From: Fimbriosthenelais zetlandica
Taxonomy: Eukaryota
Direction of reading: 5' to 3'
Assembly: GCA_977030845.1 (NCBI GenBank)
Contig: OZ365109.1
Location: forward strand, 52,700,001 to 52,764,000
DNA: 64,000 nt
Shown here piece after piece: positions 51,384 through 60,300 of the stretch. Made by a program: the position numbers. Positions within the stretch are counted from its first letter, which is position 1, and each line of letters begins with the position of its first letter.

Positions 51384-54300
51384 ATAGTGTAGAACAACGA
51401 GCACAAAATCTAAAACCCCATTTTCCCCATAAAGGGGAAATGGGATTAATTTACAACCTCAAGCATCAAGGCCGCCATGTTGAATTAAGACAGGATCATA
51501 TAGCCTAGGCCTACCGGTACATGAAATAGGAATAGATAAAAATTAAGATGTATATCTACCCGCATACATGGCGTCAGAGGCTAGAAAACTCCTGAATATT
51601 CGATAAAAGGGGCGAAAACCCTCTTTCCATAGAGTTAGCATATAGCGAGTGTTTCAGGACTATCAAGCTCACGCAGGAGCTGACATTAATTAGGCCTACA
51701 GCTCAATTAGGTCAAAATTCAACATTACAATAGATTAAAAAGTGTATCTATAATCATGCATAGAATTTGGGATATTACAATGGCTAAATATTTTATAAAT
51801 GATGCCTGAAGACTGCTATCGTTGAATTAGGACTGACTAAATGGTGTAGGCCTATAGCGTACCGTATTACAAAGAGTGTTTTGTGAGAGAAAGTACACTT
51901 AAATTGACTCAACATATGAAATAGGAATAGATAAAATGTATATCTACCCAGATACATGGTGTATGGGGCCAGGCAACTCCTGAATATTCGATAAAAGGGG
52001 CGAAACCCCTCTTTCCATAGAGTTAGCACTGAGTGTTAGTTCACGCTTCTGCCGCGGGTGGCGTCGTAGAACGGGGCGCTATCAGCTCACTCGGGAGCCA
52101 TTTCTGACATTAATTACAGTTCAATTAGGTCCAAATTCAACATGACAATAAATTAAAAGTGTATCTACAATTATATATAGAATTTAGGATATTACAATGG
52201 CTAAATATTTTTAAAATGATGCCTGAAGTTTGCTCTCGTTGAATTAGCACTGACCAAATGGTGTATATTACAAAGAGTGTTTTTTGAGAGAAAATACACT
52301 TCAATTGATTCAAAATACGAAATAGGAATGGATAAAATGTATATCTACCCAGATACATGGTGTATGAGGCCTGATAACTCCTGAATATTCGATAAACGGG
52401 GCGAAACCCCTCTTTCCATAGAGTTAGCACTGAGCGTTAGTTCACGCTTCTGCCGCGGGTGGCGTCGTAGTACGGGGCGCTATCAGCTCGCTCAGGACCC
52501 ATTTCTGACATTAATTAGAGTTCAATTAGGTCCAAATCCAACATGACAATAGATTAAAAGTGTATCTACAATTATACATAGAATTTGGGATATTGCAATG
52601 GCTAAATATTTTATAAATGATGCCGGAAGTTTGCTTTCGATGAATTAGCACTGACGAAATGGTGCATATTACAAAGAGTGTTTTCTGAGAGAAAATCCAC
52701 TTCAATGGAGTCAAAATACGAAATAGGAATAGATAGAATGTATATCTTCCCAGATACATGGTGTATTGGGCCAGGCAACTCCTGAATATTCGATAAAAAG
52801 GGGCCAAAACGCTTTTTCCATAGAGTTAGCACTGGGCATTAGTTCACGCTTCTGTCGCGGGTGGCGTCCTAGTACGGGGCACTATCAGCTCACTCAGGAG
52901 CCATTTCTGACATTAATTACAGTTCAATTAGGTCAAAATTCAACATTACAATGAATTAAAAGTGTATTTACCATCATACAGAGGATTTGGGATATAAAAA
53001 TGGCTAAATACTTTATAAATGATGCCTGAAATTTGCTCTCGTTGAATTAGCACTGACTCGATCTGTGTAAATTACAAAGTGTTTTGTGAGAGAGTTTTGT
53101 GAATACACTTTCAAATATATGAGTGAGGTAGACGGAGTATCTGTCCCGGTGAGGAGGGAGGACGAGGCTTGTTTACAGGCTATGAGTGAGGCAGATGGGT
53201 ACCAGATCAACAAAAGCGAGAGTGGAGAGTGCTTGGAGGGTCTACACGAGTGCGAACCACTACGACATTTAGTTTGCTCCTTTGTTGATGGTGGCGCATT
53301 GGTAGCGGGGCCCGGCAGTATTTCCAGCACCAGTCTGAGACCTGTATACATGTACAGTTCTATATACACTGTAGATCTATAAATTTAACATTAAAGCATA
53401 TGCCATGGGATAAATAGGCCAATGAATAGGCCTAGGCCTATTTTATCTAGGGGAACGACAATTATAATTGCAGGTGGTGGAATTGTTTGAATAAGGCCTA
53501 GGCTAATTTTGTGGGCAATAGGCCCTATGGATGAAATACAGTGAATATGATTGCCAAATATATTCATCAGATAGTAGAGTGAATACTAGTGAGTAGTCCA
53601 GTGAATACTTTTGTAGAGCCTAAGTAGAGCCTAAGTGCACAGGTGCTAGAATCTAAGTGCACAGGTGCTAGAGATTGATTTAAAAAAGAAAACATCTTCC
53701 TCTTTCTGACCTAAATTGCTGAGAACAAAATGATTGCGCATTATACATGTACGTAGCTTTTCCGGGCGTAAACTTAAACAGAAGCTTTTCTGCCTTAATT
53801 ACTTCTTTATTTTAAACAAAAAATGGGCTACATTTACTAGCCGACACATTTACAAACAGTTTTAACATTAGGTTATTAATTAATCATATTATAGTTAGTC
53901 TATGTTCTCGCATCTAATTAGAAAAGCCTATAGATGGACCTAGTCCTCTAGAACTAATTTCCAGCTCCTTATTGTATGGTGGGTATGTTTCCGTACTCAG
54001 CAGACGGTGAAGACGTTGTCGGTATAGGGTCATAATGACATTCGGCGATTTCATTATTGTTGTCATCGTCTGCACCATATTTTGGATGCAGCCTCGATTC
54101 AGGATCATTGGGAGTAAGAAAGCCATGTTCATCAATGTATTTTTGTCCAAGAGATTGAGTACTGCGTCTCTGACACAATTCATTGAGTCGCTCAGTAGAA
54201 TGGGCGCTTAATGGCACCTTTGGGTATAAAAAGAAGTCTTTTGGTGCCCTCTCTATTTCCAGTGCTTTTTTGTAGCCCTCAGCTAGGGTTTGTAAGAAGA

Positions 54301-57300: not shown

Positions 57301-60300
57301 ATAATGTTCAATCTATATAGACAGTCATATTGGACAGGCATATCGGGCTCTGTATTAGGCCTATCCTATTATTAATTTAGAAATAATGTTAAATGTATAG
57401 TATAACATTTTACGCGGTGGTTAGCGTACTATATTATTGGTGCTCAACTCACCTCGACATTCTTCACCAGGGATACCGCCTGGACATAGACATTGGTGTC
57501 CGGGGCCGTAATTCATACACACCCGTTTGCGACTGCATAATACATCATTGCACGGGTCTTCACCAAAAACACATTAAGTATATATACATAGGGAACATTA
57601 CGTCATTTAGAAATCTTCCTGTGAGGTAATTATCATGGCATCATCTCATGTAATATCGATGGAGCGATATAATTATATCGGTAGGATGATTTAAATAGGC
57701 CTAGGTCTAAAATTAGGCCTACATTTGGGCGCTATTAAAAATTAATTTTCCGATATAATTAAAAGAAAGTAAATTAGGCCTATATAATAATTATATGATA
57801 GCCGCCTGCTTAGCTTACCTGATGTTATATAGGAACACAAATCATCCAAAAGTCTCGGGGTTTTGTCTTTTAGTCTGCTGCGATCATTAACCGTATATAC
57901 ATGTCTTTTGTTAAAGTCAGTGCTGATGGTGCGTAGATAGCCGGTGTTAATCTGACCATAAGGGATACCTACACCTAAAATTAATTAAACTTGTAACAAT
58001 TAATTTCACGTAAAATAATTACATACACATGTACCGGTATAGAAAAATACCAACGGGGAATTGTTTTTAGATTCTGTGAAATATAATTATATCTGCCAAG
58101 CCCTATTATGAAAGTTTTGGTAGATATGCAATTTGATACTGTAATACGTTATAGGCCTACCAATAGAAAAAATGTATAATAATCACCTATGATAAAGACA
58201 AAGATGCCAGACTTAATGGCACGGTTCGCCTCAAGCGCAAGTAATTCAGTATTAGAGGAGGATCCTCCACTGATCAAAATGATCAATGCTCTTTTTCTGA
58301 AAATATAATATGTACTCGTTTAGGTGACTCAAGTCTTGTCTTCGAAACATTTTTTACTAAGAATTGAAAATTCTCTACTAATAATTCATAAAGTACTAAA
58401 ATACATGTATTGTAATACCCTCACCTTGTTGTGTGCAATGGTCCAAAAGCCTCAGTTCGGGCGGTCTTTAGTAAACCAGGGACATTAGTTTCACCGTCTA
58501 CTTGGACGTAGTTAATTAAATGGAGATAATTCAAAAGATTTGATTTATTGAAACCATTTTCCAGTGGAATCTCAATCGTGGCGCTGCTTCCAAAGGTTAC
58601 CAGGGAAACCCTGGCCGAGTTATTTCCTACATCTAGATGATCGGTAATGGAGAGAATTAAGCCAACGAGTGCTGGCCAATTCTTAGAAGTGCCTGCCGCT
58701 GAAACTTCGATGGCGAAAACCAAGTCCAAACTCGAATAGTCACATTCACCAGGAGCTGTAGACAATCACAAAAATGTTACATGGTATCAAAAAACTGCTC
58801 TTGAAATTACAAAGGATTTTTTTGGGGGGTTCCTGATTAGCTATATGTAAAGAACGAATCATCCGTTTAATCATATCTCACGGAATTAATTCTAATTTTG
58901 ATCATTCTAACATTCCAGTACCACAAGACACACTTACTTCCATTATCACTACAAGAAAATCTTCCCGAGGGACAGGGGCACATTTGACTGTCATTCCGAG
59001 CATTGTTACATGCGTACATGTAGGGACAGGGCCCATCAATGCAGCGTATTGCTAATATAAAAATGAAATAAAGTTATACAAATTCAAATATATAAGACTA
59101 TTTTTATAATTAATGAGTTAAAATATTTTCTTTTCCAAGATCACAAACTTCGGATTAAGATATTCATACATCTCGGGTGGATAAAAAAAATTCAGATTTA
59201 TTAATATACTTACATGTAACGTTAACCCTAGAAATAGATGACACCAATAAGATAATGATTGGAGCCACTGGAAAATATCAATTTTATTAATAGTTCGTGT
59301 ATTTAGTACATGTATAAGCTATGACTATGATATGCATGGGTTTAGGAGTTCAAAGGAGAAAACATTCATGTACTTGTGAAACTTCATAATCTCCAGAATT
59401 CTAAAAGTTCGGAGGCCTAAACATGCATGTTTCAGTTGATTTAGAATTCATGTTTCAAGTAATCACTTACCTCTCATTTTGCCTTCTCCAAATTTCCAAG
59501 GTTAGGCTATCTGGCCTGTGGGAACTGTGGGTTAGTATTGACCTACCTGAAATGAATTATAATAGTTTGCAGAAGGCAAGCTACCAGTTCCGCTCTTAAC
59601 TACTATTGATTGCTATAATACATGTACGTGTAATACCCAGTTGAGCGCCAATCCAAAAAGCGCCCAAATCTATTGCGATAGGCCCACAAATAGATTGCCC
59701 CATCAATAATTTGTAGGCTAAATCAAAATGTCCGTAGCTGTTTTAGGAATTCGACGCATATTAAGATTGGGCCTAATCAGTTATAAAAGAGAACAGGCCT
59801 ACCAGTAGGCCTAATATTAAAAACATAATTTTTATTTTATAGGGCCTATAGTGTAATCTGTTCAAAACCCTAACTAACCGCCTGATTGTTTCCTGGCCAT
59901 ATAGGGCCTACCCTAATAATTTGCTATTCCGGTTCTCGGTAGGCCTAACCTACACCAAAATAATAGGGCCTATAGAAAAAACCTTGATATTTCACTACAT
60001 TTCAAAGCACAGAATATAGGCCTAGATCATTTTTCACAATTTATTCCATGATGGAAACGTTTCTCGAAAGGAAATGTATGCAGAAATCCCTTCCCTTTTA
60101 GCGCGGGAAGGAGTAATTCCAGTTAGTGCTACTTGAGGACGCCACCAGATCGACGCCAGAAAAGTGGCAGGTGCGCGAAGCTAACCACATTCTCGCTCTT
60201 TTTCAAGGAGAAAAATCTCAATTATCAGACAAGGTGCACATAAAGCGCCCAGTGAAATATATTTTTATGGATTTACAAGGTGGAGTAATACAAATTTAAC

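What the first reader, a model, noticed from the sequence alone, without database searches (positions are those of the whole stretch)
53969..59477. Type I membrane collagen-like receptor with a matrilin-like VWA-EGF-VWA head
Seen: a signal peptide assembled from two tiny exons, EGF-like, degenerate VWA (AIEVSAAG, no DxSxS), EGF, MIDAS-intact VWA, roughly 60 Gly-X-Y triplets, three EGFs, one TM helix, and a tail of about 115 aa with Tyr motifs (HYDPI, EYGNI with YxN). Known: VWA-EGF-VWA occurs in secreted matrilins and VWA2, VWA plus collagen occurs in secreted collagens VI/XII/XXI/XXVIII, and membrane collagens XIII/XVII/XXIII/XXV are type II. I know of no described protein with this C-terminally anchored combination. 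Inference: it may be a trimeric adhesion or matrix receptor presenting integrin-I-like domains on a collagen stalk, possibly signalling-competent.
Basis: partly seen in the sequence, partly recalled or inferred. Interest (0 to 1): 0.68.

Follow-up and report, generated by a model that had tools for sequence, protein, structure and literature searches.

The report
C-terminally anchored VWA-EGF membrane collagen
An invertebrate gene appears to encode a cell-surface protein that holds two adhesion-type (VWA) domains out on a collagen stalk and is anchored in the membrane by its tail end, the opposite way round from every membrane collagen described so far.

Summary
On the minus strand, 59477-53969, 15 exons with matching phases (13 of 14 introns GT-AG, one GC-AG; introns 95-378 nt; exon GC 0.46 vs intron 0.30) give a 2859-nt reading frame. 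Scanned exon by exon, it reads: signal-like start, 6-Cys EGF-like module, VWA without MIDAS, EGF, VWA with all five MIDAS residues, 57 Gly-X-Y triplets, two complete EGFs, one truncated cbEGF, a 25-residue hydrophobic helix and a 113-residue tail. The window is from a spiralian invertebrate, not human. The VWA domains are closest to mollusc collagen-VI-like and matrilin-like proteins and mussel PTMP1, at 44% identity or less. No ortholog and no described family with this arrangement was found. One of the 150 best VWA relatives, an unnamed 791-aa protein, also combines collagen, VWA, EGF and a C-terminal membrane helix, in a different order. Most likely this is a lineage-specific, exon-shuffled type I membrane collagen: a probable trimeric adhesion or matrix receptor. 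Trimer formation, ligand and signalling are inferred. It is a new variant of a known kind, of moderate interest.

The parts
59471..59477 (-). Exon 1, coding part: ATG plus 4 nt, donor GTAAGT, phase 0 to 1
   Evidence: An in-frame stop lies 8 codons upstream of the ATG.
59214..59267 (-). Exon 2: hydrophobic core of a signal-peptide-like N-terminus (APIIILLVSSIS...)
   Evidence: No Met in this exon's frame, so it needs exon 1. No signal-peptide predictor was available.
58938..59051 (-). Exon 3: 6-Cys EGF-like module (phase 1-1)
   Evidence: Cys spacing C-x4-C-x5-C-x9-C-x-C-x6-C. No Pfam hit at E<=1.
57819..58755 (-). Exons 4-6 (58755-58425, 58296-58187, 57974-57819): VWA domain 1, MIDAS degenerate (EVSAA, ISGG), with flanking Cys pair
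   Evidence: E4 hits Pfam VWA at 7.5e-12, model positions 1-93. E5 and E6 match the middle and C-terminal parts of VWA domains in multi-VWA proteins by BLASTP. Motifs. Cys positions.
57453..57557 (-). Exon 7: EGF module (phase 1-1), canonical 6-Cys spacing
   Evidence: Pfam EGF_CA is weak (E 0.025, below cut-off). The acceptor GTGAAG is the only in-frame AG.
56169..57074 (-). Exons 8-9 (57074-56866, 56583-56169): VWA domain 2 with complete MIDAS (DASTS, GGNT, TDG), no Cys
   Evidence: Pfam VWA at 2.4e-10 and 8.3e-15, model positions 1-58 and 63-168. Best solved relatives are PTMP1 4cn8, collagen VI and the integrin alpha-M I domain. Motifs.
55436..56064 (-). Exons 10-11 (56064-55949, 55853-55436): collagen triple-helix region, 57 Gly-X-Y triplets with one 2-residue break. 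The exon 11 donor is GC (AAAG|GCAAGT), with an in-phase GT alternative at 55451.
   Evidence: Pfam Collagen at 3.6e-19 (E11) and 1.9e-5 (E10, below cut-off). Triplet count. Splice sites.
55192..55299 (-). Exon 12: EGF-like module (6 Cys, phase 1-1)
   Evidence: Pfam FXa_inhibition at 6.4e-4, below cut-off.
54848..54970 (-). Exon 13: calcium-binding EGF (DIDEC..., 6 Cys, phase 1-1)
   Evidence: Pfam FXa_inhibition at 6.5e-12 and EGF_CA at 1.1e-6, both above cut-off.
54553..54666 (-). Exon 14: truncated calcium-binding EGF (DYDEC, C-x-N-x-x-G-S-Y-x-C), 5 Cys including a CC pair, no C5-C6
   Evidence: Pfam EGF_CA at 8.3e-7, above cut-off. Cys positions. The following 105-nt intron is open in frame.
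53969..54447 (-). Exon 15: 20-residue juxtamembrane linker, TM helix, 113-aa tail, TAA stop
   Evidence: No relatives found for this exon.
54311..54385 (-). Transmembrane helix, 25 residues (IVIIMIGW...IMHWL)
   Evidence: Best 19-residue Kyte-Doolittle mean is 2.67.
53984..54034 (-). ITAM-like pair YDPI-x9-YGNI at the C-terminus of the tail
   Evidence: The pattern appears in 691 of 20000 shuffles of the tail. A lead only.
53806..53811 (-). AATAAA polyadenylation-like signal, 158 nt after the stop

Best explanation
A single, compact 15-exon gene of a spiralian invertebrate encodes a protein of about 952 residues with a single-pass type I topology. It was built by exon shuffling of phase-1 EGF modules, two VWA domains and a collagen segment.

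Shown by the sequence: the exon chain, the domain identities, the intact MIDAS in VWA2 only, 57 Gly-X-Y triplets, the C-terminal hydrophobic helix, and a tail with no relatives.

Inferred:
- The N-terminal hydrophobic stretch is a cleaved signal peptide, so everything up to the helix is extracellular and the 113-aa tail is cytoplasmic.
- Three chains zip into a collagen triple helix about 49 nm long (171 residues at a recalled rise of about 0.29 nm). This makes a stalk that holds three EGF-VWA1-EGF-VWA2 heads away from the membrane on a short EGF base.
- VWA2 binds a matrix or cell-surface ligand through its metal site, as integrin I domains, collagen VI and the collagen-binding mussel protein PTMP1 do. 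VWA1 serves as a metal-independent interaction or spacer domain.
- The tail couples binding to endocytosis or tyrosine-kinase signalling.

In short, it is a trimeric adhesion or matrix receptor, in effect a membrane collagen in the reverse orientation.
For: Gene structure:
- 15 exons have compatible phases, 13 of 14 introns are GT-AG and one is GC-AG with a consensus GCAAGT donor.
- Introns are 95-378 nt, each with stops in at least two frames. Exon GC is 0.46 against intron GC 0.30.
- There is an in-frame stop before the ATG and an AATAAA after the stop codon.
- Intron 9, between the VWA and collagen parts, is only 104 nt, and exon 10 starts in phase 1 with no start codon of its own. The two halves are therefore hard to separate into two genes.

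Domains and motifs:
- Pfam, exon by exon: VWA three times, Collagen, and EGF_CA or FXa_inhibition twice, all above curated cut-offs.
- MIDAS residues DASTS, T and D are present in VWA2 and align with those of PTMP1 and collagen VI.
- All six EGF-type exons (3, 7, 12, 13, 14 and their neighbours' junctions) are phase 1-1, the classic shuffling signature.
- The TM helix has a hydropathy of 2.67.

Independent precedent: P0149 has collagen, EGF, two VWA, two EGF, a TM helix followed by RR, and a short tail.
Against: - There is no transcript evidence.
- No ortholog with the same order was found. Searches with the tail exon and the VWA2 exon in the word-indexed protein set found nothing, and the best VWA identity is 44%.
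- Charges flanking the helix do not favour a cytoplasmic C-terminus: the N-side linker is about +1 and the first 15 tail residues about -1 (read). The type I call therefore rests on the unverified signal peptide.
- No recognisable trimerisation domain (coiled coil, NC1, C1q) adjoins the helix.
- Proline is only 20 of 177 residues in the collagen exons.
- The exon 7 acceptor is weak.
- The tail has no homologs and its motifs are weak statistically.
Confidence: 0.55

Rival explanations
1. It is mainly a matrix component rather than a receptor. The protein would be a membrane-tethered precursor whose ectodomain is shed and built into extracellular matrix, an adhesive, or a biomineral scaffold, as happens with MACIT collagens, collagen XVII and gliomedin. 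Spiralian VWA proteins and EGF-collagens are also abundant in such materials.
For: - The closest VWA relatives are mollusc collagen-VI-like and matrilin-like proteins and the byssal matrix protein PTMP1.
- EGF-collagens are shell-matrix proteins in Lingula (PMC4595640, passages).
- VWA proteins are abundant in nacre (PMC5597905, passages).
- Ectodomain shedding is the rule for described membrane collagens (PMC4678570, passages).
Against: - No RxxR furin-type site occurs in any of the 13 exon translations (0 of 13).
- A 113-aa tail with six tyrosines is long for a mere anchor.
- Shedding by other proteases cannot be predicted from the sequence.
Confidence: 0.22
2. It is an innate-immune or engulfment receptor. 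A collagen-stalked pattern-recognition or scavenger-type receptor would signal through the ITAM-like YDPI-x9-YGNI pair, analogous to class A scavenger receptors (collagenous, trimeric) in its ectodomain logic and to Draper/CED-1 (type I, EGF-rich, ITAM) in its tail logic.
For: - An ITAM-like pair with upstream acidic residues sits at the extreme C-terminus.
- Draper, a type I EGF-repeat receptor, signals through an ITAM with Src42A and Shark (PMC4503800, passages).
- A collagen stalk with a ligand-binding head is the layout of scavenger receptors (recalled).
Against: - The motif arises in 3.5% of shuffles (691 of 20000) and is not seen in the tail of P0149.
- There is no SRCR, C-type lectin or EMI domain.
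- There are no expression data.
Confidence: 0.12
3. It is a gene-model artefact. The chain would merge two genes, or include a pseudo-exon, or the locus would be an unexpressed recent shuffle or pseudogene. A secreted VWA-EGF-VWA protein or a separate collagen-EGF-TM protein would then be the real product.
For: - There is no cDNA, and no ortholog with the same order was found.
- There is one weak acceptor (exon 7) and one non-GT donor (exon 11).
Against: - All 14 junctions keep phase, and no frame-breaking stops occur in 2859 nt.
- The VWA-to-collagen intron is only 104 nt, and exon 10 lacks its own start or signal sequence.
- The exon-intron GC contrast holds throughout.
- The GC donor has the consensus expected of GC-AG introns.
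Confidence: 0.1

Closest known systems
Membrane collagens (MACITs XIII/XXIII/XXV and COL-99; collagen XVII; gliomedin and other collagenous transmembrane proteins)
   Same: A single-pass membrane protein whose ectodomain contains a collagen triple-helix segment. It is probably trimeric and may act in adhesion.
   Different: The described ones are type II: N-terminal cytosolic domain, signal-anchor, a coiled coil next to the membrane, and furin shedding sites (PMC4678570, passages). Here the helix is C-terminal, a signal-like N-terminus is present, no coiled coil was recognised and no RxxR site exists. Those collagens also lack VWA and EGF modules.
Collagen VI (and the VWA-collagens XII, XIV, XXI, XXII, XXVIII)
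   Same: VWA domains joined to a collagen helix. VWA1 and the N-half of VWA2 are closest in sequence to the collagen VI alpha-3 chain among solved structures. The feature search with P0149 points to collagen VI and XXVIII clusters, as a lead only (0.81).
   Different: Those are secreted, have no EGF modules and no membrane helix. Collagen VI has C-terminal VWA domains and a helix roughly twice as long (recalled).
Matrilins and AMACO (VWA2)
   Same: A VWA-EGF-VWA head. Mollusc proteins named 'matrilin-1-like' and 'cartilage matrix protein-like' are among the nearest VWA2 relatives.
   Different: Matrilins end in a coiled-coil oligomerisation domain and are secreted. AMACO has three VWA domains, no collagen and no TM helix (architectures recalled; PMC10095167 seen as search listing and abstract only).
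Mussel proximal thread matrix protein 1 (PTMP1, PDB 4cn8)
   Same: It is the best solved-structure match to the C-half of VWA2 (E 2.5e-17). It is a two-VWA protein from a spiralian. It is cited as a collagen-binding byssal matrix protein in the reference list of PMC5597905.
   Different: PTMP1 is a small secreted two-VWA protein with no EGF, collagen or TM segment.
Type I VWA receptors (ANTXR1/TEM8, ANTXR2/CMG2) and integrin alpha I domains
   Same: A MIDAS-bearing VWA domain displayed on a type I membrane protein for metal-dependent ligand binding. The integrin alpha-M and alpha-L I domains are detectable sequence relatives.
   Different: No Anth_Ig or Ant_C domains and no beta-propeller were hit by Pfam. 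Those receptors are not collagenous. The TEM8 paper was seen as a search listing and abstract only.
P0149, an unnamed 791-aa protein from a public metagenome/metatranscriptome set
   Same: It has collagen, VWA, cbEGF, a C-terminal TM helix followed by RR, and a short tail. Identity is 38% to VWA2 and 45% to the cbEGF exon.
   Different: The order differs: collagen-EGF-VWA-VWA-EGF-EGF-TM. Its N-terminus is probably truncated and its tail is unrelated (no BLASTP hit with exon 15). Its organism is unknown and was not looked for.
Lingula EGF-domain shell collagens
   Same: Spiralian collagens that acquired EGF, EGF_CA or FXa_inhibition modules by domain shuffling (PMC4595640, abstract and passages). 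These are the same Pfam families that hit exons 12-14.
   Different: The passages read mention no VWA or TM segment ('transmembrane' and 'VWA' each occur 0 times in the main text). Their supplementary lists could not be opened.

Membership tests
Collagen superfamily (triple-helix proteins) | A long run of Gly-X-Y triplets recognised by the Pfam Collagen model | tested here: met
   57 triplets with one 2-residue break. Exon 11 scores 68.7 bits against a cut-off of 27.2.
Collagen superfamily (triple-helix proteins) | Three chains form a triple helix | not testable with these tools
   The one complex job gave no verdict (see Tried and rejected). CD, protease resistance or SEC-MALS is needed.
Membrane collagens, MACIT type | Type II orientation: N-terminal cytosolic domain and signal-anchor | tested here: not met
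   The only long hydrophobic helix is C-terminal, residues 21-45 of the last exon. The N-terminus is a short signal-like stretch.
Membrane collagens, MACIT type | Juxtamembrane coiled coil and RxxR furin shedding sites | tested here: not met
   RxxR is found in 0 of 13 exon translations. No coiled-coil predictor was run; by eye, three EGF modules lie between the helix and the membrane.
Matrilins | VWA domains separated by EGF modules | tested here: met
   Exons 4-6, 7 and 8-9. The intervening EGF is below the Pfam cut-off but has canonical Cys spacing.
Matrilins | C-terminal alpha-helical coiled-coil oligomerisation domain; secreted | tested here: not met
   The C-terminal part is collagen, EGF, TM helix and tail.
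Collagen VI | VWA domains on both sides of the helix; secreted | tested here: not met
   There is no VWA after the collagen exons, and a TM helix is present.
ANTXR/TEM8/CMG2 type I VWA receptors | MIDAS VWA followed by Anth_Ig, a TM helix and the Ant_C cytosolic domain | tested here: not met
   The MIDAS VWA and TM helix are present, but there is no Anth_Ig or Ant_C hit at E<=1.
VWA (integrin I-like) domains with a functional MIDAS | D-x-S-x-S, Thr and Asp metal-coordinating residues | tested here: met
   VWA2 has DASTS, GGNT and TDG, aligned to PTMP1 and collagen VI. VWA1 has EVSAA and ISGG, so it does not meet the criterion. Metal binding itself was not tested.
ITAM-bearing immunoreceptors (for example Draper) | Y-x-x-L/I, 6-12 residues, Y-x-x-L/I in the cytosolic tail, phosphorylated and bound by a Syk-family kinase | tested here: inconclusive
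   The pattern is present (YDPI-x9-YGNI) but arises in 691 of 20000 shuffles. Phosphorylation and kinase binding cannot be tested here.
Type I membrane proteins | Cleaved N-terminal signal peptide plus a single stop-transfer helix | tested here: inconclusive
   A hydrophobic N-terminus and one C-terminal helix are present. No SignalP or DeepTMHMM was available, and the flanking charges are not decisive.

The most novel reading that the evidence does not exclude
This is a founding member of an undescribed class: type I, C-terminally anchored membrane collagens of marine invertebrates. A triple helix of about 49 nm, nucleated from the membrane-proximal end, would display three integrin-I-like MIDAS heads. 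An ITAM-like tail would signal through Src and Syk-type kinases. That would make it a collagen-stalked adhesion or immune receptor that combines the logic of integrins, scavenger receptors and Draper in one polypeptide. P0149 would be a second, independently arranged member.
Probability: 0.12. Interest if true: 0.75.

Novelty: new variant of a known kind. Interest (0 to 1): 0.5.

Why it matters
Every membrane collagen characterised so far is type II, and folding starts from a coiled coil next to an N-terminal anchor. A collagen anchored by its C-terminus would show that the membrane-collagen design arose more than once. It would pose a concrete folding question: what nucleates the helix, and in which direction? 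It would also give a natural example of integrin-I-like domains presented as a trimer on a rigid stalk. For invertebrate matrix biology, it adds a membrane-bound member to the expanded VWA and EGF-collagen repertoires of spiralians. The claim remains a prediction from genomic sequence, and novel domain combinations are common in invertebrate matrix genes, so interest is moderate until a transcript is shown.

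Tried and rejected
- **Tail exon search.** The word-indexed protein search with the tail exon (longer proteins) scored 395 candidates and found none at E<=0.01.
- **VWA2 C-half exon search.** The same search scored 429 candidates and found none at E<=0.001. The tool calls this weak evidence. It also means the organism's own proteome is not in that set.
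- **Feature search with the tail exon.** The best score was 0.77, which is noise level.
- **Local BLASTP of 13 exon translations against the 150 listed relatives.** Exons 3, 12 and 15 had no hit at 1e-3.
- **tblastn of the exons against the window.** There are no paralogous exons elsewhere in the 64 kb. The only cross-hits are VWA1 with VWA2 and EGF with EGF.
- **Complex prediction.** Three copies of exon 11 gave an error on the first call. On the retry the result was 'no answer': score 0.12 against a mark of 0.32, with pLDDT under 50. This counts neither for nor against a trimer.
- **Tail motifs.** YxN as a signalling motif was rejected because it is present in 5668 of 20000 shuffles. Furin-type shedding found no RxxR.
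- **Pfam TMEM33_Pom33 on the tail exon.** The hit (E 0.043, 13.6 bits against a cut-off of 24) was treated as a chance match to a hydrophobic segment.
- **The + strand ORF 55408-55707.** Rejected as a gene; it is the mirror of the Gly-X-Y exon.
- **Literature.** Five searches for the architecture returned no paper describing it. Most subscription papers are not in the library.
- **Structure prediction.** Not used, because only single exons could be submitted and no exon holds a whole VWA domain.
- **Genome contigs.** Not used, because it holds only bacteria and archaea.

Full report
**Scope and constraints.** The feature is a spliced eukaryotic gene. Full-length analyses (signal-peptide and topology predictors, whole-architecture searches, whole-protein models) were therefore left out. 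The window has no N. It is not human. Its intronless FEM1B-like gene is at most 59% identical to any named protein: 53% to vertebrate proteins and 56-59% to brachiopod, mollusc and nemertean ones. In a 29-row tree it falls inside the spiralian clade (support 100/98), in a group of unnamed sequences outside the sampled molluscs, nemerteans and Lingula. I did not try to identify those unnamed records.

- I traced 15 exons whose phases all match.
- Thirteen of 14 introns are GT-AG. Intron 11 is GC-AG with the consensus AAAG|GCAAGT donor, and an in-phase GT alternative 15 nt upstream would remove five residues.
- Introns are 95-378 nt, and each carries stops in at least two frames. Exon GC is 0.46 (2859 nt) against 0.30 for introns (2650 nt).
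- The reading frame totals 2859 nt.
- An in-frame stop lies 8 codons upstream of the ATG, and an AATAAA lies 158 nt after the stop codon.
- Intron 9, between the VWA and collagen halves, is 104 nt, and exon 10 opens in phase 1 without a start of its own. This argues strongly for one gene.
- Weak points: the first coding exon holds only 7 coding nt, the exon 7 acceptor (GTGAAG) is poor although it is the only in-frame AG, and there is no cDNA.

**Domains, exon by exon (13 exon translations scanned).**
- Six exons pass Pfam's curated cut-offs on their own: E4 VWA (46.2 bits), E8 VWA (41.3), E9 VWA (55.9), E11 Collagen (68.7), E13 FXa_inhibition/EGF_CA (45.9/29.2) and E14 EGF_CA (29.6).
- E7, E10 and E12 give the expected families below cut-off.
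- E3, E5 and E6 give nothing. E15 gives only a chance-level hydrophobic match.
- E5 and E6 match the middle and C-terminal parts of VWA domains of multi-VWA proteins by BLASTP, so exons 4-6 make one VWA domain.
- E3 has an EGF-like six-cysteine spacing only.

**Details of the domains.**
- VWA1 has E-V-S-A-A and I-S-G-G where the metal site would be. It also has the usual N- and C-terminal cysteine pair.
- VWA2 has D-A-S-T-S, GGNT and TDG, which is all five MIDAS positions, and no cysteine. Its MIDAS residues align with those of PTMP1 and collagen VI.
- The collagen part has 12+3+42 = 57 triplets and one two-residue break. Proline is 20 of 177 residues, and there are three GPP triplets.
- After the collagen come a 6-Cys EGF, a cbEGF, and a cbEGF that stops after its fourth cysteine and carries an extra one (a CC pair). 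That leaves a possibly free cysteine near the membrane.
- The last exon has a 20-residue linker, a 25-residue helix (hydropathy 2.67) and a 113-residue tail with six tyrosines.
- Intron 14 (105 nt) is open in frame, so a retained-intron isoform is possible.

**Relatives.**
- The tail exon and the VWA2 exon found nothing in the word-indexed protein set.
- An exhaustive HMMER search with the VWA2 C-half exon found 2603 proteins at E<=0.001. The 150 best were listed, and none is above 44% identity.
- Ten of these were looked up. The named ones are mollusc proteins labelled COL6A, 'cartilage matrix protein-like' and 'matrilin-1-like', plus giant Branchiostoma VWA/EGF/Sushi proteins with C-terminal hydrophobic segments.
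- Among the 150, 18 have a run of six or more Gly-x-y triplets. Only one of the 150, P0149, also has EGF patterns and a C-terminal hydrophobic segment.
- Pfam confirms P0149 as Collagen, EGF, VWA twice and cbEGF twice, followed by a helix at 711, then RR and a short tail. Its domain order differs, its N-terminus looks truncated and its tail is unrelated.
- By sequence against solved structures, the VWA2 C-half is nearest to mussel PTMP1 (2.5e-17), then collagen VI alpha-1 and the integrin alpha-M I domain. The VWA2 N-half and VWA1 are nearest to collagen VI alpha-3.
- The feature search with P0149 pointed to collagen VI and XXVIII clusters at 0.81, which is a lead only.
- No paralogous exons occur elsewhere in the window.

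**How it most likely works.**
- Shown: the module chain, the intact metal site in VWA2 only, the C-terminal helix, and a tail with no relatives.
- Inferred, topology: a cleaved signal peptide puts the whole module chain outside the cell, and the helix stops transfer, giving a type I protein.
- Inferred, assembly: three chains form a triple helix of about 49 nm (using a recalled rise per residue). The helix stands on three short EGF modules and carries three EGF-VWA1-EGF-VWA2 heads.
- Inferred, binding: VWA2 binds a matrix or cell-surface ligand through its metal site, as its relatives do.
- Inferred, tail: the tail links binding to endocytosis or tyrosine-kinase signalling. The last 17 residues form an ITAM-like pair, YDPI-x9-YGNI. 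This is seen in 691 of 20000 shuffles, so it is suggestive only. YxN is at chance, in 5668 of 20000 shuffles.
- Helix nucleation is open, because no coiled coil or other trimerisation domain is evident. A membrane-proximal start helped by the anchored C-terminus and the odd cysteine is my speculation.
- The rivals are: a shed matrix precursor (no RxxR site in any of the 13 exon translations, though other sheddases cannot be excluded); an immune or engulfment receptor; and a gene-model artefact.

**Comparison with what is known.**
- Membrane collagens are described as type II with juxtamembrane coiled coils and furin shedding (PMC4678570, abstract and passages). This gene fails the orientation test, so it works like a membrane collagen without being a member of that family.
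- It also fails the defining C-terminal features of matrilins and collagen VI, and it lacks the ANTXR-specific domains.
- Spiralians are known for EGF-bearing collagens made by domain shuffling (PMC4595640, abstract and passages) and for expanded VWA protein families related to collagen VWA domains (PMC5597905, passages).
- Cnidarians have VWA-interrupted collagens such as Hcol6 (PMC12549020, passages).
- Draper shows that an invertebrate type I EGF receptor can signal through an ITAM (PMC4503800, summary and passages).
- Five full-text searches found no paper describing VWA + EGF + collagen with a C-terminal anchor. The library lacks most subscription journals.
- Supplements were closed, including the Lingula paper's Supplementary Fig. 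27 and Tables 29-30, which list proteins with both EGF and collagen domains and could bear on this claim.
- The closed metagenome and viral contig collections stayed unchecked. The only open contig collection holds prokaryotes and was not used.

**Verdict.** This is a real, coherent gene prediction for a lineage-specific, exon-shuffled protein made of familiar modules in an undescribed arrangement: a collagen anchored by its C-terminus. It is best filed as a new variant of a known kind. Interest is moderate (0.5). The reversed orientation and the MIDAS heads on a collagen stalk are unusual, and P0149 hints at a wider class. Against that, novel module combinations are common in invertebrate matrix genes, and everything beyond the sequence anatomy is inference until a transcript and a protein are in hand.

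Noticed in passing
window 51865-53093: A 401-bp tandem repeat with 3.1 copies and 89% matches lies about 0.9 kb downstream of the gene's stop codon. Its copies carry similar ~99-aa open frames on the minus strand.
   Followed up: no
window 46966-48927 (-): An intronless 654-codon open frame encodes a FEM1B-like ankyrin-repeat protein. The best match is 82% identical and unnamed. The best named matches are 56-59% (Lingula, gastropods, bivalves). I used it to place the organism among spiralians.
   Followed up: yes
window 3381-5852 (+): Remnants of a P-element/THAP9-like transposase are split over at least four open frames, with TNP-like RNase H, GTP-binding insertion, HTH and C-terminal domains. 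It is probably a decayed transposon copy.
   Followed up: partly
window 13772-15118 (+): A single 448-codon open frame matches galactose-3-O-sulfotransferase (Pfam 9.3e-36).
   Followed up: partly
window 20420-20692 (-), 36666-36971 (-), 39582-40505 (-): Exons of a RecQ-family helicase are present on the minus strand. RecQ_Zn_bind scores 6.3e-16, and a helicase-like frame is visible by eye. A 308-codon Ser-rich frame has no Pfam hit and may be its N-terminal region.
   Followed up: no
window 37595-37816, 38228-38549 and 12950-13209: Short tandem repeats (45 bp x4.9; 42/86 bp; 32 bp x8.2) create long mirror open frames on both strands.
   Followed up: no
window 55435-55300 (intron 11) and 54552-54448 (intron 14): Intron 11 has a GC donor with consensus flanks and an in-phase GT alternative 15 nt upstream. 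Intron 14 is 105 nt and open in frame, so retaining it would insert 35 residues between the last EGF and the membrane helix.
   Followed up: partly
P0002 and P0128 (Branchiostoma proteins among the VWA relatives): Giant amphioxus proteins of 6024 and 4623 aa carry many VWA, EGF and (in P0128) 52 Sushi repeats, with a hydrophobic segment near the C-terminus. They are further examples of membrane-anchored multi-VWA proteins in invertebrates.
   Followed up: partly
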